A stretch of DNA of 64,000 nucleotides from a virus, in the UHGV virus genome UHGV-1558314; one strand, given 5' to 3'. This document shows, in pieces, positions 1 to 63,581 of the stretch. Made by a program: the position numbers and the translations under genes. The notes beneath the pieces are model-generated. The model had not been told where the DNA came from and made no database searches. It saw only the letters and a program-made list of their open reading frames with translations. How positions within the stretch are numbered: the stretch's first letter is position 1; every line of letters begins with the position of its first letter.

Positions 1-1417
1 CATATTGTGTAGACGCTTTTTGACGTTCAACATCATTCTTGAAATTGTTTGTATTGAGCTTTGACATCACAGATGCAATGTCAGAGTCAAGCACCGACAT
101 TTCTTGCTGAACTGCTCGTTTTTGATTGTACAATGACAAAATTCGAGATTTGTCAGTGTTGTCAATCAAATGCGTGTTAAGCTGAATGACTTTGAATGCT
201 TCTGCAGACAATTGCAAACGATTTGGCTTAATTGCATATTGCGATGGCGCAAGCATATCAGTAGTCAATGCGGCAATATAAGTGCCAATTGATGCGTCGC
301 CATGTGACAACATATACGAGTTTGCATTGACAAGCTCATTTGTTGCAGTACGAATTGTAAGTGTTGCAGTGTCAATCAAAACTGCTGGGCTGTACTGAGC
401 TACTGTGTTATATGCATCATGCACAGGCGACAAGAACAACACGAATTTTTCAGAATGTCGAAGTGGTACTTCAATGACTTTTCGAACAATGGGCTCTACA
501 AAGACGAGGTCAGTGACTTCTACATTCAATGCATTCAAGCCTGCAGTACGCTGCAGTATACATGTTTGCGACAGTTTGTCAATCGAAACAATTTGCAGTA
601 ATACTGAACCAGTTGGGTCTGACAATGTGTCACCGACTTTCAATGTCAGTGAACCAGCAACTTTTGCGTCAATTGCATCATATACAATGCTGTCAAGTTT
701 GACAGCGATTGTGCCATTGTTCGCATTTTGCTTCTTGAGAATTTTGAAGCTGCCACTTGATGCTGCTCGTCGTGGTCGCAGATTAACTGTGAAGTCTTCA
801 AGAGTATAGTCATCATCAGTATGCCAGCCATGCGCATCAATTTCAGCAAGCAATGCAGCATGGCTCATTTCAATGCCTGTTTGTGTCACAATTTGCTGCA
901 ATGCAGCAAACATGACGTCTGAGCATATGTACTTTGTAACTTGACATTGTTTAAGATACGATGATGCTTGACCAGTCACATCAATTTGCACGTGCATACC
1001 AAGCGCTGTTGCGCGTTCAAGCATATCATTGCCAAGTGCGACAACATTGTTATCTTCTGCTATCGTGCCTTGCAAAGTTTTCAAAGTCTCAGGCTGATTC
1101 AACAAGCTCATATGCACCATTGTACGCATATTGTTGTTTGCATCTACAAGTTGTGCATACAACTGCTCGCCATTATTTAAGCCTATCAAGACTTTCATAT
1201 TTTGCTCAATGACAGTCATGCGACGTTGAATTGACGCAAAGCTTGGCACAGTAATGCTTGTTGTGTTGCCATCGTCATTTGTCAATGTTATTGTGACTGT
1301 ATCTTCTGATGATGACACTGCAGCTTGCAGCACATCAAGGTATTGCAGACTATTGTCATACAGTTGCTTAATGTCTGACAGCAATTGTTGCATTGCATTT
1401 GTTGAAACTTCTGACAT
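1..1417 (-). CDS. hypothetical protein, 3' end beyond window (at least 472 aa)
   Basis: Manual reverse translation: ATG at 1417-1415 opens a continuous frame (MSEVSTNAMQQLLSDIKQLYDN...) with no stop before position 1. Absent from ORF track because it has no stop in window. Antisense ORFs 405..809 etc. are low-complexity. Confidence 0.5.
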   Translation of the reverse strand, partial: MSEVSTNAMQQLLSDIKQLYDNSLQYLDVLQAAVSSSEDTVTITLTNDDGNTTSITVPSFASIQRRMTVIEQNMKVLIGLNNGEQLYAQLVDANNNMRTMVHMSLLNQPETLKTLQGTIAEDNNVVALGNDMLERATALGMHVQIDVTGQASSYLKQCQVTKYICSDVMFAALQQIVTQTGIEMSHAALLAEIDAHGWHTDDDYTLEDFTVNLRPRRAASSGSFKILKKQNANNGTIAVKLDSIVYDAIDAKVAGSLTLKVGDTLSDPTGSVLLQIVSIDKLSQTCILQRTAGLNALNVEVTDLVFVEPIVRKVIEVPLRHSEKFVLFLSPVHDAYNTVAQYSPAVLIDTATLTIRTATNELVNANSYMLSHGDASIGTYIAALTTDMLAPSQYAIKPNRLQLSAEAFKVIQLNTHLIDNTDKSRILSLYNQKRAVQQEMSVLDSDIASVMSKLNTNNFKNDVERQKASTQY

Positions 1418-10635: not shown

Positions 10636-10664
10636 ATTATATATTGATATATTACAACATTTGT
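10636..10664 (-). promoter_or_regulatory. conserved phage promoter motif (ATGTTGTAATAT...TATAAT)
   Basis: Minus-sense AAATGTTGTAATATATCAATATATAATATAAAACCTCTACAACAATG; the -10 TATAAT lies about 20 nt before the ATG. Confidence 0.45.
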
Positions 10665-10710
10665 TGTCAATTTGCACAATTGTTGTTAACAAAATGCATT
10701 ACATTGACAA

Positions 10711-10744
10711 AAAAATAAAGGCTCAGTTTGTATAACTGAGCCTC
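10711..10744 (-). terminator. rho-independent terminator after thyA
   Basis: 10-bp stem AGGCTCAGTT/AACTGAGCCT with 5-nt loop, followed on the minus strand by TTTATTTTTTTG. Confidence 0.55.
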
Positions 10745-10763
10745 TTGAAATGACACGAACTTA

Positions 10764-14404: not shown

Positions 14405-14626
14405 TTATGTTCGAATATATGAGAACATATATTATTTGTAAAGATATAATACTACAAACAGCACACATTTGCACTTTGACATAACTGATTGAGTATCAAT
14501 CAATTATGAGTTTATAAAAGTTTTTCAAAAGTAGGGTGTTGTTGTTTGAGTAGAGTGTTGTTAATGCTGTCAGCTGTCTTGTTAGCATTATCGATTGCTT
14601 GCAAACTATCAGCCGTCATAGAACAT

Positions 14627-15929: not shown

Positions 15930-15953
15930 ATTTTGGGATGTTTGTTTTTGTTA

Positions 15954-17048
15954 TCATACAACGACGGTATCTCGTTTGCAATCTGTTCTGTCGAATATCG
16001 AGCAACAATATGATGCAGATTGCTCTTTGATTGCAATAGCTTCGTCATTGTCAAGTGATGAAATACCATCTATGTATGCTTTTGTATTGCCAGCGATGTC
16101 ATCATTTGTTAGCAATGCTGCACGACGTTCAGTACCAAAGAAGCCAAAGCACAATTGACGCTGCAATGCTTCACGAGAAATCTTGTCATCAAACTCGGAT
16201 TTCATGTGTTGCATAAATTCGACAATATCATCAATGTCGCATTGAGTAAAGTCAATGTACAATTTATGCATGTACTTGAATCGTTTGTAGTCTGTTGCAA
16301 GAATTTCTGGGTGCACAATGAACAACGTCTTTTTGCTGTCTATTGGATTTGCAATGACTGACGCTTGAACATAATCAACAAGCACGCCAGATTCACGAAG
16401 TTGCTCAACTGTTTTGCCAAATATATGCCCAAACGTGTCATCAAACCACTTCAAGTATACTTCGTTGTCTTCATCTTTTGATGCGCCAACAATGTAAATC
16501 TCATTGACTCCAAGCGCTTTAAGACGAGTGTCAGATAGCATCGTGTTCAATTGATGCTGCACATACAGCATTGGGCTGCTATGCAAAACTGTTTTGACAA
16601 TCTCACAAGCAATGTCCATATATGCATAGTCAAGCTTTGCAGATTTTGACACATACACTGCACGTTGCTGCAATGGCTCAATTGCTGAGCATGTGGTCAC
16701 AAAGTTGCCAACACATTCTGCTACTGCAATGTCATGCAAGTCATCTGCAATGTACACAATACTTGACAAGTCATCAAATGTTTGAACAAGTTGCTGAAGC
16801 TTTGTTTTGTAATTGCAGAGCATCAATGACTTGATGTTGCAATTGCCAAGCATTGTCTTGATGAGTCGTTGACCTGCTTCAGTGCTGTCACCAGAAATGA
16901 CATGCACATCGCAGTCAAACCAGTTCAACATGTCGATTGCATGCCGAACGCCATATTGCATTTGTTTTGCGAACTTGCCAGATTCATTGAACAGCATTTC
17001 ACCTGACATAATGCCGTCAAAGTCACATACGATTTGAAGTCTGTCCAT
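15954..17048 (-). CDS. HAD-superfamily phosphatase domain protein with uncharacterised C-terminal domain
   Basis: N-terminal IVCDFDGIM matches the HAD motif I (D-x-D-G). Confidence 0.5.
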   Translation of the reverse strand: MDRLQIVCDFDGIMSGEMLFNESGKFAKQMQYGVRHAIDMLNWFDCDVHVISGDSTEAGQRLIKTMLGNCNIKSLMLCNYKTKLQQLVQTFDDLSSIVYIADDLHDIAVAECVGNFVTTCSAIEPLQQRAVYVSKSAKLDYAYMDIACEIVKTVLHSSPMLYVQHQLNTMLSDTRLKALGVNEIYIVGASKDEDNEVYLKWFDDTFGHIFGKTVEQLRESGVLVDYVQASVIANPIDSKKTLFIVHPEILATDYKRFKYMHKLYIDFTQCDIDDIVEFMQHMKSEFDDKISREALQRQLCFGFFGTERRAALLTNDDIAGNTKAYIDGISSLDNDEAIAIKEQSASYCCSIFDRTDCKRDTVVV

Positions 17049-20400: not shown

Positions 20401-21339
20401 TGTGACCTTTGACTTGATTTTGATTTTATTGATGCGGCCAGGGTTGATGAGTGCAATCTTGTCTGTTTTGACATCATTATCAATTGTGATTGTATGATAA
20501 TGCACAAGCTGCTCAAGTGGATGCCACTCTACCACAATTCGCTTGTTGTCAATATCGATGTCAAGCAAGTTGTAGCCATGTTCTGCAGTACCATGCTGTA
20601 TTGCAGTGTCATTCAACAAATAGTCGCCTTCACCAAAATCTCTGACAATTGGCGAGCCGCAATATGTTAATGTCTTATCACCAGCAACCCATATTGCATG
20701 CTTATGAATGTCACCCATTGCAACAAAGTTGCTATTAAATTGCATTGCATCTATACGACTGTCATTGTCACCACGAACAATACAATCATCAAAGTTGACA
20801 CAATTCTTTACAGGGTCATGGAACAGCTCAATGACACACATTGATGACAATGCTGCAATCTGCGATTCATCAAGTGATGCCCAAGGCGAATATGTGCCAC
20901 CAGACCACTTCTCATTTTGAGCCCATACTGCAGCAGCAAAACCAGGTGCAAGCAGTTCAACTCTTGAACTGTTGATATACTTGATTCGCTTGTCATCAAT
21001 TGCAGTTACAAGCTTGTCAATGCTATCTGTCCACTGCATTTGTGAACCATCACCAGCATCAAATGTGTTATCACGTTGCTTCAAATCATGATTGCCAGCA
21101 GTAATGACAATTTGAAGCTTGTCATTGACTTCAAGCATGCCTTTGAGCAGCTTAACAAACAGCGACTCTTCAAGTGAATTGCTATTCCAATGCTCAAACA
21201 CGTCGCCGACAATGAATACAAACTCAACTGACTTTGCTTTGTCAATTAGTTGTTTGTTGATGTGCTCATATTCTACGAAACGTCGTAAATGACCTTGTCG
21301 AACATTATATTGAATGTCTGCTATGTGAAGTGCTTTCAT
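17413..21339 (-). CDS. fused Mre11/SbcD nuclease - Rad50/SbcC ATPase (1308 aa)
   Basis: N-terminal phosphoesterase motifs VFIVGDVFEHW, VITAGNHDL, GDIHKH; Walker A GNNGNGKTTIFRLIKWLL; coiled-coil with zinc hook DKCPVCTNDL; signature SGMEGTFAGLAIV; Walker B LLIDEISGKLS. One uninterrupted ORF. Confidence 0.75.
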   Translation of the reverse strand: MKALHIADIQYNVRQGHLRRFVEYEHINKQLIDKAKSVEFVFIVGDVFEHWNSNSLEESLFVKLLKGMLEVNDKLQIVITAGNHDLKQRDNTFDAGDGSQMQWTDSIDKLVTAIDDKRIKYINSSRVELLAPGFAAAVWAQNEKWSGGTYSPWASLDESQIAALSSMCVIELFHDPVKNCVNFDDCIVRGDNDSRIDAMQFNSNFVAMGDIHKHAIWVAGDKTLTYCGSPIVRDFGEGDYLLNDTAIQHGTAEHGYNLLDIDIDNKRIVVEWHPLEQLVHYHTITIDNDVKTDKIALINPGRINKIKIKSKVTKPELSGIVERIAQNLVSSYVVAAIDILYDSAVIDSINAVDANGDNLLQKVQTAEWLKDAALDWVNAYIERNAIVATEDAQQFVDMFKSLIDEQIDKLSFDTEVAKYVIQNVKANQFMALKDVDVSFDNLAQLTQVRGNNGNGKTTIFRLIKWLLTGFIDAEQSSAATKQNALTYFNDKLIDNESYDKLEASCVFVHVVAGQNVHYKLIRTLERKFKRGSRINADGSWRDNVSAVNETVQLVRLSDDYVVPQHEIKDTLYAIFGSIWELSRYVCINQTLLDQIIAMDSNSLNDWLLDTLGINTFVQLGNSNDAAKAALFDGLSKPALTDVAIKAELESLNTTCNELNYSLQLRQDNQKEWSAKLTKARAKVEELSKKLHQIPADILTIEDATANIDGIIAKIHKVELDIAALALQDMSKLQTAKAQIEQQLTNIDNEANTAYTNVIASGSQLHNTYAELLTKQNELSAKVQKEVAHAESLYRTKLDESKLAYDAAKQHIDSVLINLGKSYNANTRAKIDALQKQIEDINTVQNALRTEISAAKTNIDNVIDKQKQLENDKCPVCTNDLTSGTGQAYKLWLSTELAKLRQECAQKTEQFNENVVKIGNLKYEIEQLQAAIIDVTDSNAIIAALNPAHKAAYDMHAEKLNDLQRTVVNAQRDLDAFIAQPMATAATLLEVEAVKMQIADITNQLADIKRKAEQAKQDVLQSKSTVESELAAINAELEIAQAEYDKKATYESALKQLEIDKTAAAFALEHAQQTQQHITTNAALQVDIDDAKQHETEANSKLLSINAEIATMQADLSANNVRIEALKKDLQASKKWNIANLVYNAYKQCTSKRGLVSYVFAAIATSLNAQLNDLLDSLNYRVFFDINDNNVLKMIDLMGSKSIRSVSQMSGMEGTFAGLAIVHLILTQRLNKVGNILLIDEISGKLSNGQIVGAEHDVNNINYQQVLMQLLTKLSAIRKTLIVDHVLQQDEFDSALTVVANTDGTSSIC

Positions 21340-21341
21340 AT

Positions 21342-21358
21342 TCTAAATGAGATTTAGA
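21342..21358 (-). promoter_or_regulatory. palindromic leader element TCTAAATGAGATTTAGA just upstream of the Mre11-Rad50 start codon
   Basis: Same 17-bp palindrome as at 14388-14404, at -3 to -19 from the ATG. Confidence 0.5.
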
Positions 21359-21386
21359 TTATATGTTGATATTGTACAACATGCAA
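21358..21386 (-). promoter_or_regulatory. sigma-70-like promoter TTGCAT-N17-TATAAT with conserved TTGTACAA core
   Basis: Minus-sense TTGCATGTTGTACAATATCAACATATAAT, about 18 nt upstream of the ATG at 21339. Confidence 0.55.
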
Positions 21387-21418
21387 AATGCACTTGCATT
21401 TTGATACAACGTATGTCA

Positions 21419-21766
21419 TTATTTTGCAAGCATTTTGCTGATTGCATCTATCACAGTTTCACTGAGCAAGTAGTAGACAACGCTTATCAGCAATGATATC
21501 AGTACTGCAGCTGTGATAAATTGCAACGCATTCACAATTGCACGCACAAATGTTATCTGTGTGTTGTATGCAAGCACTATGCAGCATAGCACAATAATGA
21601 CACACCAGACTACAATTGCATATGCAGGCATCAATGAATTTGTCCATATGCAGTACAATACAGTAGTTAGCATCAAAAATGCTATTGCTCTGATGACTGA
21701 CACAATGATGTCTATGTAGAGCTTCATTACACGTAAATGAACTCTTGGCTTATGCGGTTTCATCAT
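21419..21766 (-). CDS. small membrane protein
   Basis: ORF 21419..21829 trimmed to internal Met; hydrophobic segments IIVSVIRAIAFLMLTTVLYCIW, AIVVWCVIIVLCCIVLAY, AAVLISLLISVVYYLL. Confidence 0.4.
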   Translation of the reverse strand: MMKPHKPRVHLRVMKLYIDIIVSVIRAIAFLMLTTVLYCIWTNSLMPAYAIVVWCVIIVLCCIVLAYNTQITFVRAIVNALQFITAAVLISLLISVVYYLLSETVIDAISKMLAK

Positions 21767-23001
21767 GACTTTATGTACAATTCTGCAAGTTGTCTGGTGT
21801 ACAATCGTGGATTGTGATATGCTTTCCAATATGCAGTAGACTTTATTGCAGCAAGAATCTCATCATAATGTTTGACTGCTTTTGCTACAACTTCATCAAG
21901 TACATGCAAATCTTCTACACTAACAAGCAGCCATTTTTCTACAATGTCAATGAATTCTTGATTGCAATTAAAGCCATATTTGTAGTTGCAAGTGTCAAGT
22001 ACAAGTGGGATGCAGTCATTTGTCAGTGCTTCAAAAAATCTACGAAGACTGAAACAATTCTCATCATATGATGGAATGCTTAATGTAAACTTGGCAGTCT
22101 TGATGAGTTGCAAATACTCTTCGTATGGAATCAGAGGACCATTGTGCTTCCACTGATTGTTATGTCGTCTTGTTGTGTACTTGAACAAAAACTTTGAACT
22201 GTCAAGCTCACAAAGATGGTCCATGCGTAAAATGTAGTTATAGCGGTCTCTTCTATCAGGCCAACTGTCAGTCATTGCAAACACAAAGTCTCTTTGCTTG
22301 TCACATTTTGCTGACATACCTCTATGCTGACACATGCAGTACCAATATTGCTGCGATGGACTGAACTCGAACTTTGAGTGATGCTCACTGCCATCTTTGC
22401 ATTGTTGAACGTAAATATTGTCAGGCACAAAGTGAAAGTAGAAATGTCGAATTTGCAAGCCGTCAATGTAGTCAAGCTTATGCTGCAATGGGTCCTCACA
22501 GAAATTGTAACACTGAATGCGTTTTGCTGCAGCATACTCAGCAACTATGAATGTGCACACCCATTGCAATGCGATGTCTTCACTCTTCAAAAAGTCAACA
22601 AGTGGCTCATTTGGATGCGCTTTGCATTCATTGAACATTTTGTACCACTTGCATTGCTCCATGTCATACTTGGAGACTGTATTGCCATTAAAAAATGACA
22701 CAGTATCAATTTTGAATGCCTCAAGTTGTTTATGCACAATGTCGATTGCTTGTGCATATGTGACAGTCTCATCAGACATTATTTGTGCAAACTTGATTGG
22801 ATGCGCATGCAAATTTGCAATTGTGTCTGCTGACATTTTGCGCTGTGTATGATAATCGACATACAAAAACTGACACTTGTCTGTAAGCAATTCAAGCATT
22901 GCTACAGATTTCCATCGAATTGCTTGAAAGAAATTGAAGTGCGCAGTTTGAAAAATGAGATGCGTAGGCTTGTCAGAATGAGTCAAAGTTTGCATGGACA
23001 A
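21763..23001 (-). CDS. putative DNA glycosyltransferase, GT-B-like (paralog A1)
   Basis: Paralogous to 26026..27582 (shared EDPLQHKL[D/N]YID, SPSQQYWY, IPSYDENCFSLRRFFEALTNDCIPLV). The C-terminal S-L-R-x-F-x-E...P-L-V patch resembles the catalytic region of phage beta-glucosyltransferase. Family assignment is from memory. Confidence 0.45.
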   Translation of the reverse strand: MSMQTLTHSDKPTHLIFQTAHFNFFQAIRWKSVAMLELLTDKCQFLYVDYHTQRKMSADTIANLHAHPIKFAQIMSDETVTYAQAIDIVHKQLEAFKIDTVSFFNGNTVSKYDMEQCKWYKMFNECKAHPNEPLVDFLKSEDIALQWVCTFIVAEYAAAKRIQCYNFCEDPLQHKLDYIDGLQIRHFYFHFVPDNIYVQQCKDGSEHHSKFEFSPSQQYWYCMCQHRGMSAKCDKQRDFVFAMTDSWPDRRDRYNYILRMDHLCELDSSKFLFKYTTRRHNNQWKHNGPLIPYEEYLQLIKTAKFTLSIPSYDENCFSLRRFFEALTNDCIPLVLDTCNYKYGFNCNQEFIDIVEKWLLVSVEDLHVLDEVVAKAVKHYDEILAAIKSTAYWKAYHNPRLYTRQLAELYIKS

Positions 23002-24158
23002 ATGTCGCAGTTATGTTGATGTTTGTGTTTATTTATGAAGTCATATGTCACTGCAAAAAAGTGCTTTGCAATGTCATATCGAGTTTTCAAATATGCTGCT
23101 TGTCGTTCACAAAATGCTGCATAAATATCTGGGTGTTGTTTGAATGCTGCAATGCGTTGCTGTACTTGTTCTGCAGAATGCACATATGACACTTTGCTCA
23201 AATATACATCATCTGCAAATAATCGTTTGTCTTTGTCAACTGCGCAATCAACAAAAGTTGCAATTCGTGCAACAATTGCTTCACCGACACGATTTGGTAT
23301 TAGCCCATATTGCTCATATTGCTGTTCGCCGATAGCAATGTGTGCTGCTGCATATGACATTGCATATGGCACACTATAAAATGGCACACTAAAATCAAAT
23401 GAACAATTTGACTGCAGCAATTGTGTTTGTGCATCAGACAATCTACTTGTCAAGTTGCCTGTATATTTGTGCTCACCAAGAAAACTTGAGCGACAGCCTG
23501 AATCTACATAGTATCGAATGACTTTGTTTATGCGACTGTCAGATAGCATATGCCAATCTCTTGTAGCATATATCAAGTCTACTGTTTTTGCGCCAATATG
23601 ACGAGGCTCTATCGCAACATTGCTGTATGTTGGCAGCATAAACAATGGCAGCCATTTGACATTGTTGAACACTGAATGCTCATTTGACAAATTCATGCAC
23701 TGGCTAAGTTCAAGTACTGGCTCATCATACACGCCATGTAGCTCAACTCTGCCTGCATGCACAAAGTTGACACGCTTAAATGGAAATCGCATATCAGTGC
23801 AAACTGTCATTCTTGCTGCAATAGACATTCGCCACATAGCATGCAGCTTAACAACTGCTTCTGCTTGAGGTCGAGGCAACATATTTAGCAAATCAATCCA
23901 GCCGCCCCACAAAATCCAAACATCATTTGAACAGATGTTGAATTGCAAACTCAATATGTCTTCTACTGTTGTAGCAATAATGTCATGCCCATTGATGCTT
24001 GCAAGGTGTTTTCGTTGATTTGCAATAATAATGACTTGACTGAATGGAGACTCTGGAAATGACACAAGCGCTTTTGCAAACAACACGGGTTCTTGCGACA
24101 CCAAGTTGTTTGAGTATGGGTCGATTATGCAATCAAGCTTGTGTATGAAGAGTCTCAT
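22983..24158 (-). CDS. hypothetical DNA-modification-associated protein (paralog B1)
   Basis: Paralogous to 27579..28745 (similar N-termini MRLFIHKLD / MSKLFILKFD; shared L[L/I]PNR[W/V]-x-E-x-[V/I] near C-terminus). Sits immediately upstream of A1, as B2 does of A2. Confidence 0.4.
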   Translation of the reverse strand: MRLFIHKLDCIIDPYSNNLVSQEPVLFAKALVSFPESPFSQVIIIANQRKHLASINGHDIIATTVEDILSLQFNICSNDVWILWGGWIDLLNMLPRPQAEAVVKLHAMWRMSIAARMTVCTDMRFPFKRVNFVHAGRVELHGVYDEPVLELSQCMNLSNEHSVFNNVKWLPLFMLPTYSNVAIEPRHIGAKTVDLIYATRDWHMLSDSRINKVIRYYVDSGCRSSFLGEHKYTGNLTSRLSDAQTQLLQSNCSFDFSVPFYSVPYAMSYAAAHIAIGEQQYEQYGLIPNRVGEAIVARIATFVDCAVDKDKRLFADDVYLSKVSYVHSAEQVQQRIAAFKQHPDIYAAFCERQAAYLKTRYDIAKHFFAVTYDFINKHKHQHNCDICPCKL

Positions 24159-24889: not shown

Positions 24890-25030
24890 ATAACGTTATA
24901 TCATATCTACACACAAAGCAAATGCTACTGCAAGTGCAGCCATAATTGCATATACGACTATCGATGCAGTATAATCTGATTCAGGATTCCACTTATCAGG
25001 TGTGTTAAGCTTGTGATACTTGTCTCGTCT

Positions 25031-25082: not shown

Positions 25083-25124
25083 AGCAGCCATCTGGCAGGT
25101 TTCTTGCTTTGTAAAGCTTGGATA

Positions 25125-25153
25125 GAGGATGGATTTTATATGTTGATATTGTA
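25125..25153 (-). promoter_or_regulatory. sigma-70-like promoter TTGCAT-N17-TATAAA (second copy of conserved motif)
   Basis: Minus-sense TTGCATGTTGTACAATATCAACATATAAA; spacer identical to the copy at 21358-21386. Confidence 0.5.
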
Positions 25154-25195
25154 CAACATGCAAAATGTATTTGCATTTTGATACAACATATATTG

Positions 25196-25411
25196 TCATT
25201 TTGCACAGTCTGATGCAATTAAATCTTTGTCAAAGCATTCATCTATAATGTCTTCAATAAGATACGCTTCGACATTGTTAAGCTTCAAGATATCTACGAG
25301 TTTTGCTTTGATATCGCAAGCTAATGCAGATTCGACTGTATGCAATATGACTGATGATACGACATGCTTGTCTGTCATCATTTGTAATTGCTGTGGTGTT
25401 ACTCTACTCAT
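25196..25411 (-). CDS. hypothetical small protein (71 aa)
   Basis: ORF track; 4-nt overlap with the upstream kinase gene. Confidence 0.35.
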   Translation of the reverse strand: MSRVTPQQLQMMTDKHVVSSVILHTVESALACDIKAKLVDILKLNNVEAYLIEDIIDECFDKDLIASDCAK

Positions 25412-25980: not shown

Positions 25981-26025
25981 TGTGTATTATGTTTGATTTT
26001 TGATTACAGTACAACGTAGTTATGC

Positions 26026-27582
26026 TCATTGCACTTCTACGAATGGCTCTTTCAACACAAAGCTGTCACCATTGCAACATGCGGCTGAGCCATCGTCTGC
26101 ATCAAGTGCGCATGACATATCAGACTTGCAGAACTTGCAATATGAACATGACCATGCATGACTCATAAAGTTGTTTGCTTCACAAATTACACAGCGCTCA
26201 TGTGAAAGTGTATTGTCGCAATTGTCACAAGACTTCTTGATTGGCACATCTTTATTGATATATGCAAGATGCAATGCAATATCATACACAAAGTCACCCG
26301 TATATTGCTGAATGAAATCAGTGTGCCACAACTCTTTTAACAATTGTGTATGTCTATATGGCTGAACAATGTCTTCAAGATGCTGCAAGTCATCATCGCT
26401 AACCATGAGCTTCTTAATGACAAACTGTTTGAACTGCGGCCATCTGTCAAACATATAGAGTTTGCATGAGTTGTGCACAAGTGGAACACAGCCAAGCACA
26501 ATGCTTTCACAGAATCTACGCAAACTAAAACAGTTTGCATCATATGACGGCACAATCAATGTGAATCTGCTATGCTTGATGAGTTCAAGGTATGTGTCAT
26601 ATGGCAGTAGCTTGTCTGACAATGGCTGCTGTTGCTTGTCCCTGCTGAAAAATCTGAACACAATGCCTTTATCAATTGCATCTTGATTGTGCAGATGCAT
26701 GAGTTTGTTGATGAGTTCTGTGCGTTCAGTTTTGTCTCGCCAAGTATTCGTCAATGCAAATGCAAAATTCAGTCGCTTGTCATCAAACGTCGCTTCAATG
26801 TCATCCCAAGTTTTGTCATGCAAATACCAGTATTGCTGTGATGGGCACCATCCATAATATGCAATAGCGTCTTGTTCTGCTGTAACGTCATACACATATG
26901 CAGAATTGTATTCAAGGCCAAGCCCTTTGACATTGTTGCAGTCATGAAAGTACCAATGCTGCACTTTGAATATCTTTGATGCACTGAATGCGCTTTCATA
27001 TGGCCCTGAATAGCGATAGTCAATGTAATTGAGCTTGTGCTGCAATGGGTCTTCGACAAAGTTGTTTATGACTGTGCCTTGTTGTTTGCCATTAGTCTTG
27101 CGAGCATTCAATGCAATATTGTACTGCATAATGACTGACAGCATCTCATACACTACATACATGAGTGCTTTGTAGACTGAGCCTGCTGCGTCAATTAGCG
27201 GCAAATCACGTTTGACTGATGCAGTACCAAATGTCTTGCAATATGCAGAAAATGTATCAAGTTCTGCCTGTTGAAATGAATTGCATGCGCCATTGAATAT
27301 GTTGAATGTTGCAATGTAGCTCATATTACAAGATGTCATTGACATATCAAGACGCTTCATAATGTCAGCAATGCGACATTGAGCAAAATCTGACACATCA
27401 ACATATTTGACATGATGACCTGATGCAGTCAAGCCAACTGCGACTTCTTTCATTTGTGGCACAAAGCCTACTACAATGAACAAGTCATCTTTGTTTGCTC
27501 GTTCAAACATTGCTGCACTTTTCCAAGTCAATGAATTGAAAAAGTCTATGTAGCCAGTCTGTGTGATGATATGTGTTCTCAT
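26026..27582 (-). CDS. putative DNA glycosyltransferase, GT-B-like (paralog A2) with Cys-rich C-terminal tail
   Basis: Paralog of 21763..23001 (VEDPLQHKLNYID, CPSQQYWY, VPSYDANCFSLRRFCESIVLGCVPLV). Extra C-terminal Cys cluster (CDNCDN...CVICE...CSYCKFCK). Confidence 0.45.
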   Translation of the reverse strand: MRTHIITQTGYIDFFNSLTWKSAAMFERANKDDLFIVVGFVPQMKEVAVGLTASGHHVKYVDVSDFAQCRIADIMKRLDMSMTSCNMSYIATFNIFNGACNSFQQAELDTFSAYCKTFGTASVKRDLPLIDAAGSVYKALMYVVYEMLSVIMQYNIALNARKTNGKQQGTVINNFVEDPLQHKLNYIDYRYSGPYESAFSASKIFKVQHWYFHDCNNVKGLGLEYNSAYVYDVTAEQDAIAYYGWCPSQQYWYLHDKTWDDIEATFDDKRLNFAFALTNTWRDKTERTELINKLMHLHNQDAIDKGIVFRFFSRDKQQQPLSDKLLPYDTYLELIKHSRFTLIVPSYDANCFSLRRFCESIVLGCVPLVHNSCKLYMFDRWPQFKQFVIKKLMVSDDDLQHLEDIVQPYRHTQLLKELWHTDFIQQYTGDFVYDIALHLAYINKDVPIKKSCDNCDNTLSHERCVICEANNFMSHAWSCSYCKFCKSDMSCALDADDGSAACCNGDSFVLKEPFVEVQ

Positions 27583-28745: not shown

Positions 28746-29442
28746 ATACTTTGCAATTATCTATTACATGTTGATATTGTACTTCATCTATGATGTGATT
28801 TGCAATGACACCATATGAGGCGTCATACATTGGCATCTTCTCATATGACAATGCTGCGTCAAGATTGCATATCACATAATTGCAATGCACAATGTCATCT
28901 ACATTGTCACTAACTGCTACGATATTGACACACTTTGCAAGAAATGCATCATCAAAGTCTACTTGATTGCATGCAACCTCATAATCTGCTGCGCTTCTTG
29001 GGTACCAATATAACTCAATGCCAGCACTACTAAGTAGTCGCAAGCCATCTATGTGATGATACAAGTCAACAAAATGCACTTGCTTAACGCCTGCTTGCAA
29101 AATAAGCTTTGCGCAATCAATGCATGGACTGTATGTTACATACAGCACTGCGTCATTTGCGGTCGCATTGCCATATTTGCACAGCTTCATCAATGCGTTT
29201 GATTCTGCATGCAAAACTTCTTTGTTGGTTTTGATACCTGCCGATGTTGCATGCTCACAACAATTTGACATGCCAGTTGGCATGCCATTGTAGCCATCTG
29301 AAATTATGCAACCATTTTTTACAAGCAATGCGCCAACTTTTGCTCGCTGAGCATATGAATTTAATGACCAAAGCTCAGCCATTTTAAGATATATGAGATT
29401 TCGTTGAAACTGCTTTGTTTCAGACCAAGTTAGCCATTTCAT
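28717..29442 (-). CDS. dCMP deaminase (zinc-dependent cytidine/deoxycytidylate deaminase family)
   Basis: Zinc-ligand motifs LHAESNAL (H-A-E) and YSPCIDCAKL (P-C-x-x-C). Confidence 0.8.
   Translation of the reverse strand: MKWLTWSETKQFQRNLIYLKMAELWSLNSYAQRAKVGALLVKNGCIISDGYNGMPTGMSNCCEHATSAGIKTNKEVLHAESNALMKLCKYGNATANDAVLYVTYSPCIDCAKLILQAGVKQVHFVDLYHHIDGLRLLSSAGIELYWYPRSAADYEVACNQVDFDDAFLAKCVNIVAVSDNVDDIVHCNYVICNLDAALSYEKMPMYDASYGVIANHIIDEVQYQHVIDNCKVYEQTIHFEI
28763..28791 (-). promoter_or_regulatory. partial copy of conserved promoter motif inside the 3' end of the dCMP deaminase gene
   Basis: Minus-sense GAAGTACAATATCAACATGTAAT, about 18 nt upstream of the B2 start codon at 28745. Confidence 0.35.
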
Positions 29443-30845: not shown

Positions 30846-30874
30846 CATATATGAATATATTGTACAACATGTAT
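30846..30874 (-). promoter_or_regulatory. conserved promoter motif (ATACAT-N17-TATATG variant)
   Basis: Minus-sense ATACATGTTGTACAATATATTCATATATG, 16 nt upstream of the ATG at 30829. Confidence 0.45.
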
Positions 30875-30970
30875 TGAGCTTTTGCACAACATATGTTGTT
30901 AAAATATCATCATTGTACAACATAAAGCGCATATTTGCACGTTGTGTTGCTAAAAATATTGTTATTGTAC

Positions 30971-31004
30971 ACAAAACAAGCAGACTGCAATTGCAGTCTG
31001 CTTG
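30971..31004 (-). terminator. rho-independent terminator (perfect 28-bp palindrome) followed by TTTTGT
   Basis: CAAGCAGACTGCAATTGCAGTCTGCTTG; stem near-identical to the hairpin at 14632-14666. Confidence 0.55.
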
Positions 31005-31051
31005 CACTTGTTATTAACCCTTAAAATCAATGACACTATGTCAATGTCATT

Positions 31052-34437: not shown

Positions 34438-34455
34438 TTATATTGATAATGTACA

Positions 34456-36051
34456 TCAAAGTTTGAATTTTTGCACTTTTGCATCTACTGGCATCTTTTC
34501 AGCGTCATAGATTCGTTTTCGAGCAGCAAAGTGTTGCATGTCATAATTGCAGTAGCAGTAGCCTTTGCGAAGCTTGACAAGCATATCACTGTGAATTGTA
34601 AGCTTATGTGCAATATCAATAATGATTGCTTTCTGCTTAAGTGGATGCTTACGCAACAGTCGCCCAATTGACTGCAATGTTACGTTGTCAGATTTGCCAA
34701 TCATCAAGAATGCAGCATAAAACCAAGCATGCACAGATACGCCTGTAGATAATGTGCCAGTTGTTGCAATCATGATGTGTCTATCAGGCTCTGCTTCCAT
34801 CATTGCAAGCATGTCTTTGCGTTCATGCAAGGGTACATCACCTCTAATGATGTGAACAACCTTGTCAACACCAGACTGCTGTATGAATGTTTGACATGCA
34901 TCATAGATGTTCTGCACATGGTCTCGTCGTTTGCAAAGCACAAGAGCATTTTTGTCAAGCGAACAAATGATTTTTGCAATGAGCTTGTTAGCATCGACGT
35001 AGTTCATGCAATGATGTTGTTCTGCTGGAAGCAGTCTTGCAGTGTTATCAAACACTTCAGGATGCTCTTCAAGATACTGCACAAATGACGCATCATATTC
35101 TGCTGAATGCTCAATGACTACTCGTTTAATTTCAAAGTCAGACACGATGTTCTTTTCGAGTGCTTGAGCTACACCAAATGTACCCAATATTGGCCCAATG
35201 TAAGATTCAATTGTCAAACGAGCTGCAGTGTGCTCAAGTGGCAATGAACCAGAAACTCCAAGACGATAATGAGCTTTTGTGCAATGACTGAAGATTTCAC
35301 GAATTGATGCTGCAGGTGCACCATGAGCTTCATCAGTTACAATGAAGTCGAACTGTTCGAAAAAATCTGCTGGCATATTAACAAGACTTTGATATGTGCC
35401 GACAACCATATCTGCATCTTGCATCTTGTACTCATTGCGAACGCCTGAATGGATTTTGTAGAGCTTGTAGTTCTTGTTTGCTAAATCTGACTCATTTTGT
35501 TGATAGCTGACAACAATATCGTCAAATGCTTGTGACACGAGATGCACCGAGGGCACAATCATAAGTGTTTTGCCATTGATTCTCTTGCTATCTTTTAAGA
35601 AGCGACTAATTACATAAACAAGAGCTGTTTTGCCATAAGAAGTCGCAAGGCGTAAACAGCATTTCTTGAATTTGCAAGCAGTCAAAATAAACTTGAGCTG
35701 GTCGTCACGCATGTCAAATGGCATGTCAAGACATTCTGCCCATTGCTCAAGTTCTTCAAGCGACACAATGCGGTCAAAGTTGTCAATGAGGCCCTCAATC
35801 TTGACTTCGTATGGAATTGGCTTACGCAATTGTAAGTCCCAAATACGCTTCCATAAGCCAAATGGTAGGTATATGCCATTAAACACATAGCAAATTTGCC
35901 CATTCCAATCTGTTTTGCGCCCTTTGCGCTTATTGACTGCTGCTGCAACAAAGTTTGGCACTTCTGCAGTAGCTTCAGCGTATAATTGCTTGGCTTCCAA
36001 ATCATTTGCTTCGACAATCTGAAGCAAATCACCTATGACTTTGAGTCTCAT
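34456..36051 (-). CDS. SF2 DEAH-box DNA helicase (UvsW-like)
   Basis: Walker A LATSYGKTALVYVI, DEAH box FIVTDEAHGAPAA, motif VI LQSIGRLLRKHP. Confidence 0.65.
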   Translation of the reverse strand: MRLKVIGDLLQIVEANDLEAKQLYAEATAEVPNFVAAAVNKRKGRKTDWNGQICYVFNGIYLPFGLWKRIWDLQLRKPIPYEVKIEGLIDNFDRIVSLEELEQWAECLDMPFDMRDDQLKFILTACKFKKCCLRLATSYGKTALVYVISRFLKDSKRINGKTLMIVPSVHLVSQAFDDIVVSYQQNESDLANKNYKLYKIHSGVRNEYKMQDADMVVGTYQSLVNMPADFFEQFDFIVTDEAHGAPAASIREIFSHCTKAHYRLGVSGSLPLEHTAARLTIESYIGPILGTFGVAQALEKNIVSDFEIKRVVIEHSAEYDASFVQYLEEHPEVFDNTARLLPAEQHHCMNYVDANKLIAKIICSLDKNALVLCKRRDHVQNIYDACQTFIQQSGVDKVVHIIRGDVPLHERKDMLAMMEAEPDRHIMIATTGTLSTGVSVHAWFYAAFLMIGKSDNVTLQSIGRLLRKHPLKQKAIIIDIAHKLTIHSDMLVKLRKGYCYCNYDMQHFAARKRIYDAEKMPVDAKVQKFKL

Positions 36052-37337: not shown

Positions 37338-37398
37338 GTTATTTGTATATGTATTGTGCAACATGCATATTCATATTGTATATGAATATGATACAACA
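37338..37398 (-). promoter_or_regulatory. two tandem copies of the conserved promoter motif upstream of the SSB gene
   Basis: Minus-sense TTCGCATGTTGTATCATATTCATATACAAT and ATATGCATGTTGCACAATACATATACAAAT. Confidence 0.45.
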
Positions 37399-37416
37399 TG
37401 CGAATATCATTTGCAC

Positions 37417-43514: not shown

Positions 43515-43587
43515 TGTTGTAGAGGTTTGTATACTATATTGATATATGATAATTGTACTACAAATTTATCAAATTTGCACTGATTTA

Positions 43588-62551: not shown

Positions 62552-63448
62552 TTACAGTGTTCCGCAAAGCAATTCACGTAAATCCATGCCGGCTTGTGTA
62601 CTGTACTGAGCAATAAGATTACGTTCTGAATCAGACATACTCCAATAAATCTTATGCAGAGCTCTACGAATAATAGTATGAATGCCAGATGTGCTACAAT
62701 TGAACTTCTTTGCAAGTTCTGCATGAGTTAACAAATCAGCATCGCCAAGGCCATACACATGTGTGAGTACAAGCTTTTCATTTTGAGTGAGTTGTTCAAA
62801 TGCTCTTTGCAGAATCTTTGTGATACGTTTGTGAGCATCTTCGATTTCAAGAACTTCTTGGCCTGTTTTGAAGTCTGACCTCAAATCATTCTGAACTGGT
62901 GACCATGCGTCACCATCTTTGTCAAGTGTAGTGTCATCCTTGCTGATGAATTGCTTGCCTTCAAGAGCTCTTTCATATGCTCCACGAATACCAGTAGATA
63001 ATTGTTGACTTGTCAGATTGAGTTCGTCAAGCACATATTTCTTAATCCAAGGATATGCATATGTGCTAAACTTTGCTTCACGAACTCCTGCAGGCAATAC
63101 GCCTTCTACGTAATTCTTGGCTGCTATTGACAATCCAAGATTGCCTGCTTGAATGACGTCATCAAATGGAACCGAGCGTTTGCCAGATGCGAACCATAAG
63201 CTTCGTGCAACTGATATGACCAATCTTAAACAAGATTTGATAAGAGCTTCACGATTTTCTTGAGTCTTCTTGAATCGAGTAACATCACAATATCGCTTTG
63301 CAGTAGCCAGCGATTTGACTTCTTCAGGAGTAAGCTCATTCTCCATCCTCATTTGCTTGAGCTCTTCCTTTGTGTATAGACGTTCTCTTGTGATTCTACC
63401 TACGTCCTTTACGTAGCCTTGATTGATTTGTGAATTTGAACCTGCCAT
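62552..63448 (-). CDS. sigma-70-family RNA polymerase sigma factor (regions 2 and 4)
   Basis: Region 2: DDVIQAGNLGLSIAAKNY and FSTYAYPWIKKYV; region 4 HTH: LTQNEKLVLTHVYGLGDADLLTHAELAKKFNCSTSGIHTIIRRALHKI. Confidence 0.7.
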   Translation of the reverse strand: MAGSNSQINQGYVKDVGRITRERLYTKEELKQMRMENELTPEEVKSLATAKRYCDVTRFKKTQENREALIKSCLRLVISVARSLWFASGKRSVPFDDVIQAGNLGLSIAAKNYVEGVLPAGVREAKFSTYAYPWIKKYVLDELNLTSQQLSTGIRGAYERALEGKQFISKDDTTLDKDGDAWSPVQNDLRSDFKTGQEVLEIEDAHKRITKILQRAFEQLTQNEKLVLTHVYGLGDADLLTHAELAKKFNCSTSGIHTIIRRALHKIYWSMSDSERNLIAQYSTQAGMDLRELLCGTL

Positions 63449-63581
63449 GGTTGTGTAACTTATTTAGTTTTAATTTGTTATATAAATTTAATCATTTTTT
63501 GTCACATATGAAAATGTTTTGCACATTATTGTCACATAAAGTGTAAAAAAGTTATGAACATTTTGTTAACACATGTAGACA

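What the first reader, a model, noticed from the sequence alone, without database searches (positions are those of the whole stretch)
21358..21386. Conserved promoter family with a TTGTACAA palindrome and sigma-70-like spacing
TTGCATGTTGTACAATATCAACATATAAT (-35 TTGCAT, 17-nt spacer, -10 TATAAT) occurs with identical spacer at 21358-21386 and 25125-25153. Variants occur at 30846-30874, 10636-10664, 28763-28791, twice at 37338-37398 and near 43518-43560, always 15-20 nt before a minus-strand start codon. Conservation beyond the hexamers suggests recognition by a dedicated factor, possibly the phage sigma factor at 62552..63448. Start codons lie so close to the -10 that transcripts would have very short leaders.
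Basis: partly seen in the sequence, partly recalled or inferred. Interest (0 to 1): 0.5.

Follow-up and report, generated by a model that had tools for sequence, protein, structure and literature searches.

The report
Conserved phage promoter family, hexamers re-registered

Summary
The repeat is real. The exact 29-mer is at 21358-21386(-). The second copy is at 25135-25163, not 25125-25153, and has one mismatch. The family has about 16 members, all on the gene strand between 10.6 and 43.6 kb, in the DNA-metabolism module.

Syntenic metagenomic phages (34-51% identity in the adjacent 1308-aa nuclease) carry the same signal. A matrix built only from their sites finds 9 window sites, all intergenic and all on the minus strand (0.6 expected).

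The conserved anatomy is (G/T)TGCAA - 17 nt - TAcaAT, preceded by T-17 G-16 T-15 n G-13, with A exactly 7 nt downstream. Leaders are mostly 17-31 nt, not very short.

Genes lack Shine-Dalgarno sites, as in Bacteroidota. The motif misses three of the six near-invariant positions of that phylum's sigma-A -7 box.

The phage sigma gene (62552-63448) has a host-type promoter of its own. I therefore propose a cascade: host sigma-A, then phage sigma, then this promoter class. This is inferred, not shown.

It is a new variant of a known kind and of moderate interest.

The parts
21364..21399 (-). Promoter copy at the finding (P2 of a tandem pair): -35 ATGCAA 21399-21394, 17-nt spacer ending ATGTTG, -10 TACAAT 21376-21371, predicted +1 A at 21364. 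The leader is 25 nt to the ATG of the 1308-aa SbcCD-like gene (17413-21339).
   Evidence: (14.7 bits with a matrix built from relatives only)
21394..21429 (-). Upstream tandem copy P1: TTGCAA - 17 nt - TATCAA (-10 at 21406-21401). The 97%-identical relative L001 has a single promoter here.
25141..25176 (-). Promoter copy: ATGCAA - 17 nt - TACAAT (-10 at 25153-25148). It is followed by a strong hairpin and a U-run rather than directly by a gene.
   Evidence: (19.2 bits)
25171..25206 (-). Upstream tandem copy: GTGCAA - 17 nt - TATCAA.
43545..43580 (-). Best-scoring copy: GTGCAA - 17 nt (ending TTGTAG) - TACAAT. The leader is 31 nt to gene 43203-43514, the first gene of the minus-strand DNA-metabolism block.
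   Evidence: (35.5 bits)
37381..37416 (-). Copy: GTGCAA - 17 nt - TATCAT, upstream of the SSB-like gene 36132-37265.
   Evidence: (23.8 bits); SSB
37346..37381 (-). Weaker tandem copy: ATACAA - 17 nt - CACAAT. Its start region overlaps a TACATATACAAAT box (37341-37353) of the candidate late class.
   Evidence: (6.9 bits)
34441..34476 (-). The likely start is the second ATG at 34422, giving a 19-nt leader.
   Evidence: (25.4 bits)
30852..30887 (-). Copy: GTGCAA - 17 nt - TACAAT. The leader is 23 nt to gene 29447-30829.
   Evidence: (16.7 bits)
30905..30940 (-). Tandem copy 53 nt upstream: GTGCAA - 17 nt - TACAAT.
   Evidence: (12.6 bits)
30957..30991 (-). Weak third copy: TTTGTG-TACAAT directly after a terminator hairpin. 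It has no clear -35.
28769..28805 (-). Copy: TTGCAA - 18 nt - TACAAT. It lies inside the 3' end of the dCMP-deaminase gene. The leader is 24 nt to gene 27579-28745.
25999..26034 (-). Probable weak copy: GTGCAA - 17 nt - TACTGT. The leader is 19 nt to gene 25408-25980.
   Evidence: (2.0 bits)
15946..15981 (-). Copy: TTGCAA - 17 nt - TATGAT. The leader is 17 nt to thymidylate-synthase homologue 15048-15929.
14439..14474 (-). Copy: GTGCAA - 17 nt (ending TTGTAG) - TATTAT. The leader is 52 nt to helicase gene 12510-14387.
   Evidence: (24.9 bits)
10642..10677 (-). Copy: GTGCAA - 17 nt - TAATAT. The leader is 24 nt to gene 10397-10618. It lies 40 nt after the terminator at 10717-10745.
   Evidence: (22.0 bits)
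10717..10745 (-). Intrinsic-terminator-like hairpin (12 pairs plus T-run) that closes the upstream transcription unit just before a promoter copy.
30976..31005 (-). Intrinsic-terminator-like hairpin (13 pairs) just upstream of the promoter cluster at 30.85-30.99 kb.
62552..63448 (-). Phage sigma-70-family protein (298 aa; regions 2 and 4). It is the candidate reader of the promoter family.
63477..63514 (-). A different, host-type promoter (TTTT-N20-TAAATTTA) directly upstream of the sigma gene. It is conserved upstream of the sigma orthologues in related phages and recurs many times in Chryseobacterium phage MA9V-1.

Best explanation
This is a family of about 16 phage promoters that drive the DNA-replication and nucleotide-metabolism genes, a 'middle' class. 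The host is Bacteroidota-type. The closest cultured relatives are jumbo phages, and a near-identical contig is 174.6 kb.

Each promoter has sigma-70-family geometry:
- a -35 box (G/T)TGCAA;
- a 17-nt spacer (18 nt at one site, 16 nt at one weak site) whose last bases form a conserved block T-17 G-16 T-15 n G-13;
- a -10 box T-12 A-11 c a A-8 T-7;
- a start at the A seven bases downstream.

Several genes carry two or three copies in tandem.

Proposed mechanism (inferred, not shown): the host RNA polymerase with its own sigma-A transcribes the phage sigma gene from a host-type promoter. The phage sigma (62552-63448) then directs the host core enzyme to this class, which host sigma-A should read poorly.

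My confidence that this is a promoter family with the register given here is about 0.85. My confidence that the phage sigma is its reader is about 0.5. The figure below is for the whole statement.
For: Shown here:
- Family and chance. The exact 29-mer occurs twice against 0 expected. ATGTTGT is the most enriched 7-mer in intergenic DNA: 12 of its 24 occurrences lie in 7% of the window, p = 2e-8.
- Independent test. A matrix built only from 14 sites in related phages (L003, L006, L007) gives 9 window hits of 10 bits or more. All 9 are on the minus strand and all are intergenic. The null expectation is 0.62 for both strands.
- Register. Over 33 sites, G-13 occurs in 33, A-11 in 33, T-12 in 32, G-16 in 32, T-7 in 31, T-17 in 30, T-15 in 30, A-8 in 29 and +1 A in 31. 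The -35 TGCAA lies 17 nt from the -10 in 14 of 16 window sites.
- Context. Terminator hairpins lie just upstream of copies. In the window, nine of the ten promoter-proximal leaders are 17-31 nt and one is 52 nt. Most of the relatives' leaders that I measured are 16-25 nt.
- Distribution. The sites occur only at 10.6-43.6 kb, before helicase, SSB, SbcCD-like, thymidylate-synthase-like and glycosyltransferase-like genes. None occurs before the structural genes.
- Not host type. Only 1 of 69 genes has a Shine-Dalgarno-like 4-mer, and A is enriched at -3, -6, -12 and -13. This matches Bacteroidetes (PMC6847099). That paper gives host sigma-A near-invariant positions T-12 A-11 T-8 T-7 T-6 G-5. This class has A-8 (29/33), A-6 (29/33) and T/A at -5. 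TAnnTTTG is not enriched upstream of genes.
- No cellular counterpart. The full pattern occurs 3 times in the window, but only 43 times, always singly, in 596 Gb of bacterial genomes, with no taxon enriched.
- Sigma. It has regions 2 and 4 and keeps the KFSTYA motif of region 2.3. Orthologues at 43-78% identity occur in the clade, one of them on the same 153,672-bp contig that carries motif sites. The segment after region 2.4 is nearly invariant.
- Sigma gene promoter. The sigma gene has a different, host-type promoter with -7 box TAAATTTA. In MA9V-1 the box is TATATTTG.

From the literature: jumbo phages of this group lack their own RNA polymerase and encode RpoD-like and minimal sigma factors (PMC7824862).
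Against: - No transcription data exist for this phage. Start sites and timing are inferred.
- I picked the relatives' sites using the TTGTnGTA core, so the invariance at those positions is partly ascertainment. The scan from relatives to the window and the k-mer test are free of this bias.
- The sigma factor is conserved well beyond the clade (27-32% identity in MA9V, PAU and PTm1). A candidate late box is also shared with MA9V-1. The GTGCAA-17-TACAAT class is seen only in the closer clade and was not found in PTm1. By parsimony the sigma could therefore serve the late class instead.
- No sigma-3 domain could be established, because the AlphaFold model was poor (pLDDT 51.6).
- The -35 and the sigma region 4.2 do not co-vary in any way I could exploit.
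- The host is inferred from translation signals and phage relatives. It was not identified.
Confidence: 0.5

Rival explanations
1. The sites are promoters with the register given here, but they are read by something other than the 298-aa sigma. One possibility is host sigma-A redirected by a phage appropriator and activator, as with T4 AsiA/MotA. Another is a second, unrecognised phage sigma. The 298-aa sigma would then serve the late genes.
For: - The sigma is conserved across a much wider phage group than this motif.
- A late-type box (TACATATACAAAC here, ATATATAAAC in MA9V-1) is likewise widely shared.
- The window covers only about a third of the genome, so other factors may lie outside it (174,628-bp relative).
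- Group 2 jumbo phages often carry two sigma types plus a gp33 orthologue (PMC7824862).
Against: - Pfam and PHROGs found no MotA-, AsiA-, gp55- or gp33-like protein in the window.
- The 17-nt spacing between the -35 and -10 boxes is the geometry of a single sigma with domains 2 and 4. A MotA box sits about 12 nt from the -10 (my own knowledge).
- The candidate late box shows no obvious -35, which suits a minimal sigma better than one that has a region 4.
Confidence: 0.25
2. The sites are ordinary early promoters read directly by the host's housekeeping sigma-A.
For: - T-12, A-11 and T-7 are shared with the host -7 element.
- The distance from the -35 TG to the TA of the -10 (20 nt) equals the host spacing of 19-21 nt (PMC6847099).
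- DNA-metabolism genes are often early genes.
Against: - Three of the six near-invariant host positions are replaced: T-8, T-6 and G-5 become A-8, A-6 and T/A-5.
- E. coli-type promoters are reported not to work in Bacteroidetes.
- A separate host-type promoter class exists in the same genome.
- No bacterial genome shows recurrent copies of the pattern.
Confidence: 0.12
3. One reading: -35 TTGCAT, 17 nt, -10 TATAAT, with transcripts starting 10-12 nt before the ATG.
For: It is a perfect sigma-70 match at 21358-21386 and a near-perfect one at 25135-25163. TATAAT-like hexamers (5/6 or better) occur at 5 of the 16 window sites in that register.
Against: - TTGCAT is present only in the two near-duplicate copies.
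- In the relatives the mean match in this register is 1.6/6 and 2.9/6.
- The leaders in the relatives would shrink to about 3-12 nt.
- Generic sigma-70 hits are not enriched over shuffles: 55 against 58.7, and 62 against 52.5.
- A Bacteroidota host would not use TTGACA/TATAAT.
Confidence: 0.04
4. The core is a palindromic operator for a dimeric phage repressor or activator (TTGTACAA, or ATGTTG..CAACAT) rather than a polymerase recognition element.
For: TTGTACAA is a perfect 8-bp palindrome. In two copies ATGTTG and CAACAT flank it.
Against: - The dyad is not conserved. Relatives have TTGTAGTACAAT, and other window copies lack CAACAT.
- All copies point the same way as the genes.
- The conserved positions are asymmetric and fit the -35, -10 and +1 positions.
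- Pfam and PHROGs searches of the window's proteins named no DNA-binding regulator other than the sigma.
Confidence: 0.04

Closest known systems
Extended -10 promoters of sigma-70/sigma-A holoenzymes (TRTGnTATAAT; E. coli, Bacillus; my own knowledge)
   Same: - -10 hexamer with A-11 and T-7.
- A conserved block immediately upstream sharing T-17, R-16 and T-15.
- An optional -35 at 17 nt. The -35 is strong in the window phage and weaker in relatives, as is typical when the extended -10 carries recognition.
- Start 7 nt downstream at a purine.
   Different: - G-14, the defining base of the TG motif, is A/T here. Instead G-13 is invariant (33/33).
- The -35 is TGCAA rather than TTGACA.
- The inferred host phylum does not use such promoters.
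Bacteroidota sigma-ABfr promoters (-33 TTTG / -7 TANNTTTG; PMC6847099)
   Same: T-12, A-11, T-7 and the overall spacing. The phage's other promoter class, upstream of its sigma gene (63477-63514), does fit this type with 5 of 6 positions.
   Different: T-8, T-6 and G-5 are replaced by A-8, A-6 and T/A-5. There is a strong extra TGTnG block at -17..-13 and a TGCAA at -34..-30.
Phage-sigma-dependent middle promoters, such as Bacillus phage SPO1 gp28 promoters (my own knowledge)
   Same: A phage-encoded sigma made early redirects the host core polymerase to a phage-only class with its own -35 and -10 boxes, placed before replication genes. This is the logic proposed here.
   Different: The box sequences are unrelated and the sigma shows no close sequence relationship. 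The dependence has not been demonstrated for this phage.
T4 middle promoters (MotA box at -30 plus sigma-70 -10, with AsiA; my own knowledge; AsiA in jumbo phages per PMC7824862)
   Same: A middle class that keeps a -10 of the TAnnnT type but replaces the host -35 with a phage-specific upstream box.
   Different: The upstream box here lies at the canonical 17-nt spacing, not about 12 nt. No MotA or AsiA homologue was found in the window.
GTGCAA - N11 - nTGTGG - TATAAT promoter families in unrelated IMG/VR phages (L011, L071, L010/L063, L042)
   Same: The same -35 word (GTGCAA), the same 17-nt spacing, and a conserved block before the -10.
   Different: - Those have the canonical TGTGn extended -10 (G-14).
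- They have Shine-Dalgarno sites and 47-56% G+C.
- No homologue of this sigma occurs in the fetched stretches.
- They were found because the search pattern fixed GTGCAA.

Membership tests
Sigma-70-family (-35/-10) promoter | Two conserved blocks separated by 17 +/- 1 nt | tested here: met
   (G/T)TGCAA lies 17 nt from the -10 in 14 of 16 window sites, 18 nt in one and 16 nt in one weak site. The same spacing is seen in L003, L006 and L007 sites that have a -35.
Sigma-70-family (-35/-10) promoter | -10 hexamer with near-invariant A-11 and T-7 | tested here: met
   A-11 in 33/33 sites and T-7 in 31/33. A-11 in the relatives is partly due to ascertainment.
Sigma-70-family (-35/-10) promoter | Located upstream of genes and oriented with them | tested here: met
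   All 9 hits of the relatives-only matrix are intergenic and on the gene strand. In the window, nine of the ten promoter-proximal leaders are 17-31 nt.
Sigma-70-family (-35/-10) promoter | Transcripts start 6-8 nt downstream of the -10 | not testable with these tools
   The only evidence is the sequence proxy: A at the 7th base in 31/33 sites, preceded by a pyrimidine in most. No RNA data are available.
Extended -10 (TGn) promoter | T-15 G-14 immediately upstream of the -10 | tested here: not met
   T-15 occurs in 30/33 sites, but position -14 is T or A (T 20, A 13 or fewer, G 0). G is invariant at -13 and -16 instead.
Bacteroidota sigma-ABfr promoter | -7 element TAHHTTTG (T-12 A-11 T-8 T-7 T-6 G-5) | tested here: not met
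   A-8 in 29/33 sites, A-6 in 29/33, position -5 T or A and G in only 1/33. The consensus is from PMC6847099.
Regulon of the phage sigma (62552-63448) | Transcription depends on that sigma | not testable with these tools
   The support is indirect only. A sigma orthologue and motif sites lie on one contig. The sigma gene has a separate host-type promoter. The motif is unlike the host consensus.
Regulon of the phage sigma (62552-63448) | The motif is present wherever the sigma is present | tested here: inconclusive
   The motif is present in the window, L003, L006, L007, L127 and L128. It was not found in a 44-kb stretch of PTm1. In MA9V-1 it appears only as TTTGTG-TATnAT variants. Both of these phages have distant sigma homologues.
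Palindromic operator | Dyad symmetry conserved across copies | tested here: not met
   TTGTACAA becomes TTGTAGTACAAT in relatives. The outer arm CAACAT occurs in only a few copies.
Sigma-70 family protein (the candidate reader) | Regions 2 and 4 present | tested here: met
   Pfam Sigma70_r2 (34 bits) and Sigma70_r4 (31 bits) both pass their cut-offs. Primary SigA chains in the PDB match at E = 7e-9.
Sigma-70 family protein (the candidate reader) | Region 3 / sigma-3 domain, which contacts an extended -10 | tested here: inconclusive
   There is no Pfam region-3 hit. The AlphaFold model is poor (pLDDT 51.6, residues 147-200 below 50). Residues 140-160 after region 2.4 are nearly invariant in orthologues.

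The most novel reading that the evidence does not exclude
A clade of large, probably gut-associated Bacteroidota phages carries a self-contained orthogonal transcription pair. One part is an RpoD-like phage sigma made from a host-type promoter. The other is a phage-only promoter class, TGCAA-N12-TGTnG-TAnnAT, that resembles an E. coli-style -35 plus extended -10 but is shifted to G-13. Host sigma-A cannot read this class. It would be a natural sigma/promoter pair that works inside Bacteroidota without cross-talk. It might also be tuned to the phage's probably hypermodified DNA.
Probability: 0.4. Interest if true: 0.6.

Novelty: new variant of a known kind. Interest (0 to 1): 0.42.

Why it matters
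Promoter families are ordinary in phage genomes, so the existence of one is not surprising. Three things are useful here.

- The corrected anatomy gives exact, testable start sites and a matrix that transfers to a whole clade of uncultured large phages.
- The class departs from the well-defined Bacteroidota -33/-7 rule while keeping sigma-70 geometry. It lies in a genome whose only recognisable transcription factor in the window is an RpoD-like sigma that has a host-type promoter of its own. That points to a simple three-step cascade: a host-type class, this class, and a TACATATACAAAC late class. Very little is known about transcription in this phage group.
- If the sigma/promoter pairing holds, it would be a ready-made orthogonal expression module for Bacteroides and relatives, where E. 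coli parts do not work.

Tried and rejected
- Megablast of 9 kb against GenBank phages found no match. Relatives had to be found by protein search.
- The generic sigma-70 consensus scan was not enriched over shuffles. It picked the family only sporadically, so it is uninformative.
- The loose pattern nTGCAn-16..18-TAnn[AT]T gave 41 minus-strand hits against 29 expected. It is too permissive, so I replaced it with a matrix.
- I considered reading the motif on the plus strand as a host TAnnTTTG box. I rejected this because the match is poor and the sites would be antisense to all genes.
- The host-type TTTG-N17..23-TAnnTTTG scan gave only 6 hits, none placed before a gene.
- The PTm1 locus showed no copy of the motif.
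Apart from the near-identical contig it returned only unrelated phages.
- The scan of bacterial genomes gave 43 single hits. No taxon was enriched and there was no clue to the host.
- Rfam and tRNA scans of the window found nothing.
- The AlphaFold model of the sigma had too low confidence for a fold search, so I ran none.
- Pfam and PHROGs scans for a second sigma, gp55, gp33, MotA or AsiA found none in the window.
- Literature searches for the motif strings and for promoter analyses of these phages found nothing relevant.
- My first register for the upstream tandem copy at 21.4 kb was wrong by a few bases. It is corrected, and the window counts include that one mis-set row.
Full report
**1. 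The observation**

The 29-mer TTGCATGTTGTACAATATCAACATATAAT is on the minus strand at 21358-21386. The second copy is at 25135-25163, ten bases from the coordinates given. It ends in TATAAA, so it has one mismatch and an identical spacer. No match is expected by chance.

The two copies are part of a 70-nt repeat that is 90% identical (family D15). So the family is real. The coordinates of one copy and the claim of a constant 15-20 nt distance to a start codon are only partly right.

**2. Context**

Almost all genes in the window are on the minus strand. Reading in the minus-strand direction, the window holds:
- a sigma-70-family gene (62552-63448), followed by baseplate and other structural genes;
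- a short region with repeats and two plus-strand genes (43.7-46.8 kb);
- a long DNA-metabolism block from 43.5 to 8.3 kb, with helicases, an SSB, a dCMP deaminase, glycosyltransferase-like proteins, a 1308-aa SbcCD-like protein, two thymidylate-synthase homologues and a polymerase exonuclease subunit;
- more structural genes.

The nearest cultured relatives, at about 26% identity in the 1308-aa protein, are jumbo phages of Bacteroidota: Chryseobacterium MA9V-1 and MA9V-2, Tenacibaculum PTm1 and pT24, and PAU. A 174,628-bp IMG/VR contig is 97% identical.

Only 1 of 69 genes has a Shine-Dalgarno-like 4-mer, and A is enriched at -3, -6, -12 and -13. This is the translation-initiation style described for Bacteroidetes (PMC6847099). 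The host phylum is therefore inferred, not identified.

**3. Comparative evidence and the register**

Protein search found syntenic metagenomic relatives whose 1308-aa orthologue is 51% (L003), 39% (L004), 35% (L006) and 34% (L007) identical.

In L003, L006 and L007 many genes are preceded by TTGT(A/T)G-TAnnAT. This is often accompanied 17 nt upstream of the TAnnAT by (G/T)TGCAA.

A weight matrix built only from 14 of these foreign sites was scanned over both strands of the window. It gave nine hits of 10 bits or more, at -10 positions 43557, 34453, 14451, 37393, 10654, 25153, 30864, 21376 and 30917. All nine are on the minus strand and all are intergenic. A Markov null gives 0.62 such hits, and intergenic DNA is 7% of the window. 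An unbiased k-mer test also puts ATGTTGT, TGTTGTA, GTTGTAC and TTGTACA among the most intergenic-enriched 7-mers.

Aligning 16 window sites and 17 foreign sites gives the following anatomy:
- -35 (G/T)TGCAA;
- a 17-nt spacer (18 nt at one site and 16 nt at one weak site);
- T-17 (30/33), G-16 (32/33), T-15 (30/33), A or T at -14, G-13 (33/33);
- T-12 (32/33), A-11 (33/33), C/T, A, A-8 (29/33), T-7 (31/33), A-6 (29/33);
- A at the seventh base after the -10 (31/33), usually preceded by a pyrimidine.

One caveat applies. I chose the foreign sites using the core, so invariance at the core positions is partly ascertainment. The scan from relatives to the window and the k-mer test do not have this bias.

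**4.

In the foreign sites those two hexamers match on average 2.9/6 and 1.6/6. The new -10 and -35 match 5.2/6 and 3.5/6. In the window the figures are 3.5 and 3.0 against 4.9 and 5.0.

TTGCAT exists only in the two near-duplicate copies. The 'TTGTACAA palindrome' arises where ...GTTG meets TACAAT. Relatives have TTGTAG-TACAAT, which has no such dyad.

With the new register, nine of the ten promoter-proximal leaders in the window are 17-31 nt and one is 52 nt. This counts the second ATG for gene 33982-34437. Most of the relatives' leaders that I measured are 16-25 nt.

A generic sigma-70 scan is not enriched over shuffles. What is special here is therefore this particular motif, not resemblance to the E. 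coli consensus.

**5. Further promoter-like features**

- Strong terminator hairpins lie just upstream of copies, at 10717-10745 and 30976-31005.
- Copies occur in tandem before four genes: 21406 and 21376; 25183 and 25153; 30969(weak), 30917 and 30864; 37393 and 37358.
- In the 97%-identical relative the pair before the SbcCD-like gene is a single promoter, and the leader carries a 27-nt insertion. In the window that insertion sequence occurs in the leader of the 14451 copy. The cassettes are therefore being reshuffled.
- All copies lie between 10.6 and 43.6 kb, before DNA-metabolism genes. None lies before a structural gene of the window. In two relatives one copy precedes a small gene within the structural region (L127:7125 and L128:7024).

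**6. Who reads the motif**

Bacteroidetes sigma-A recognises TTTG/TANNTTTG, with T-12, A-11, T-8, T-7, T-6 and G-5 nearly invariant. E. coli-type promoters are not expressed in the phylum (PMC6847099). The family keeps T-12, A-11 and T-7 but has A-8, A-6 and T/A-5. TAnnTTTG is not enriched before genes in the window.

The stringent pattern GTGCAA-N11-WTGTWG-TACAAT occurs three times in the 64-kb window. In 596 Gb of bacterial genomes it occurs only 43 times, always singly, with no taxon enriched. It does not look like any organism's housekeeping promoter.

Of the window proteins scanned with Pfam or PHROGs, the only one recognisable as a transcription factor is the 298-aa sigma. Its properties are:
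- It has regions 2 and 4 and keeps the KFSTYA motif of region 2.3.
- Its region 4.2 recognition helix differs from that of primary sigmas (STSGIHT against TRERIRQ).
- Orthologues at 43-78% identity occur across the clade. One is on the same 153,672-bp contig as the L007 sites.
- The stretch after region 2.4 is nearly invariant, where primary sigmas contact an extended -10. That comparison is my inference.

The sigma gene itself is preceded by a different signal, TTTTCATATGTGAC-N9-TGATTAAATTTATATAAC (63477-63514). Its TAAATTTA box meets 5 of the 6 host positions. The same box precedes the sigma orthologues in L127, L128 and L129. In MA9V-1 it recurs before many genes, and before the MA9V-1 sigma gene it reads TATATTTG, 6 of 6.

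A review of jumbo phages places this group among those that lack an RNA polymerase and encode RpoD-like and minimal sigma factors plus a gp33 orthologue (PMC7824862).

The simplest model is a cascade. Host sigma-A transcribes the phage sigma gene. The phage sigma then reads this class. A third box, TACATATACAAAC, found before structural genes (5 matches against 0.42 expected, four of them on the gene strand), marks late promoters. These could be read by a minimal sigma encoded outside the window.

**7. Why the sigma link is only about even odds**

- The sigma is conserved (27-32% identity) in MA9V, PAU and PTm1. The late-type box is also shared with MA9V-1. This class was seen only in the closer clade and not in a 44-kb stretch of PTm1. 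The sigma could therefore be the late factor.
- No gp55-, gp33-, MotA- or AsiA-like gene was found, but two thirds of the genome lies outside the window.
- The structure model of the sigma was too poor to show a sigma-3 domain.
- The -35 word is the same across the clade, so there was no covariation to test.

**8. Comparison with known systems and verdict**

The family works like a sigma-70-family -35 plus extended -10 promoter, but it fails the defining T-15 G-14 test because G is at -13 and -16. It also fails the Bacteroidota -7 test. It is not a palindromic operator.

Its logic resembles phage-sigma middle promoters (SPO1 gp28) more than T4 MotA-dependent ones, because of the 17-nt spacing. 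I found no paper that describes it.

I rate it a real promoter family with a corrected register, and a new variant of a known kind. Interest is moderate (0.42). It would rise to about 0.6 if the orthogonal sigma/promoter pairing in a Bacteroidota host is confirmed.

Noticed in passing
window 63477-63514 (-); L127, L128, L129 just upstream of position 10001; L126 and L130 (MA9V-1), many sites: A second promoter-like class, TTTTCATATGTGAC-N9-TGATTAAATTTATATAAC, was found once in the window, directly before the sigma gene. Its TAAATTTA box resembles the Bacteroidota sigma-A -7 element. The box is conserved before the sigma orthologues of related phages. In Chryseobacterium phage MA9V-1 it recurs before at least a dozen genes, including that phage's sigma gene (there TATATTTG).
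   Followed up: partly
window 62449-62461, 59634-59646, 37341-37353, 1434-1446 (all -); also about 48125, 52520, 47465, 6235; L127/L128/L129 upstream of structural genes: A candidate late-promoter box TACATATACAAAC (5 matches against 0.42 expected). It usually lies just after a terminator hairpin and 12-30 nt before structural-gene start codons. Related forms (ACATATATAAAC, ATATATAAAC) occur in the relatives and in MA9V-1. It recalls the T4 late TATAAATA box.
   Followed up: partly
window 25040-25141 (-): The promoter copy at 25153 is followed not by a gene but by a strong hairpin (GAUGGCUGCUGC...GCAGCAGCCAUC) and a U-run. The folding energy is -30.1 kcal/mol with z = -4.7. This could be a roughly 95-nt small RNA or an attenuator ahead of a 45-aa ORF (24896-25033) and gene 24155-24889.
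   Followed up: partly
window 43560-43700 (+), 44334-44470 (+), 46620-46760 (-); weaker at 45440-45560 (-): An element of roughly 100 nt is repeated three times: ...TATGAAAACTACTCAACTCTGGTTTGAACGCCAGCAGTCAATCGCGGGGGGGCTCT. It ends in a run of seven G just before the start codons of three genes of unknown function. Two copies begin with ATATGTCAATAAATTTCACATA, a possible host-type -7 box. It has no Rfam match.
   Followed up: partly
window 14388-14438 and 21340-21363 (-); L001 9950-10000: A shared 5' leader, ATATGTTCTCATATATTCGAACATAATCTAAATCTCATTTAGAAT, follows two different promoter copies. The 97%-identical relative carries the full leader before the SbcCD-like gene, whereas the window has a 27-nt shorter form and a duplicated promoter.
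   Followed up: partly
window 10764-11822, 15048-15929, 28717-29442, 21763-22995, 26026-27582: Two thymidylate-synthase homologues, a dCMP-deaminase-family protein and two proteins with weak (sub-threshold) GT47/glycosyltransferase-like hits cluster in the block served by this promoter class. This suggests a pathway for hypermodified DNA bases, as reported for the relative PAU.
   Followed up: no
L011 (5 sites), L071, L010/L063, L042 (IMG/VR contigs): Unrelated phages with higher G+C and clear Shine-Dalgarno sites carry their own promoter families, GTGCAA-N11-nTGTGG-TATAAT. These have the same -35 word and spacing but the canonical TGTGn extended -10. Among the 121 pattern hits from IMG/VR, G at -14 is about twice as frequent as expected.
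   Followed up: partly
window 48167-52495 (-): The 1442-aa protein with no family match contains several families of internal DNA repeats spaced about 300-1000 nt apart (repeat families D2, D4, D6, D7, D17). This suggests tandem repeated domains, perhaps a fibre or decoration protein.
   Followed up: no
window 36165-36319 (-): GCTGCTGCAGGTGC-type repeats inside the SSB-like gene encode an Ala/Gly/Pro-rich low-complexity linker.
   Followed up: no
window 37417-38553 (-): A homing-endonuclease-like gene (PHROG 3339, DUF7487) with internal repeats lies immediately upstream of the SSB promoter pair.
   Followed up: no
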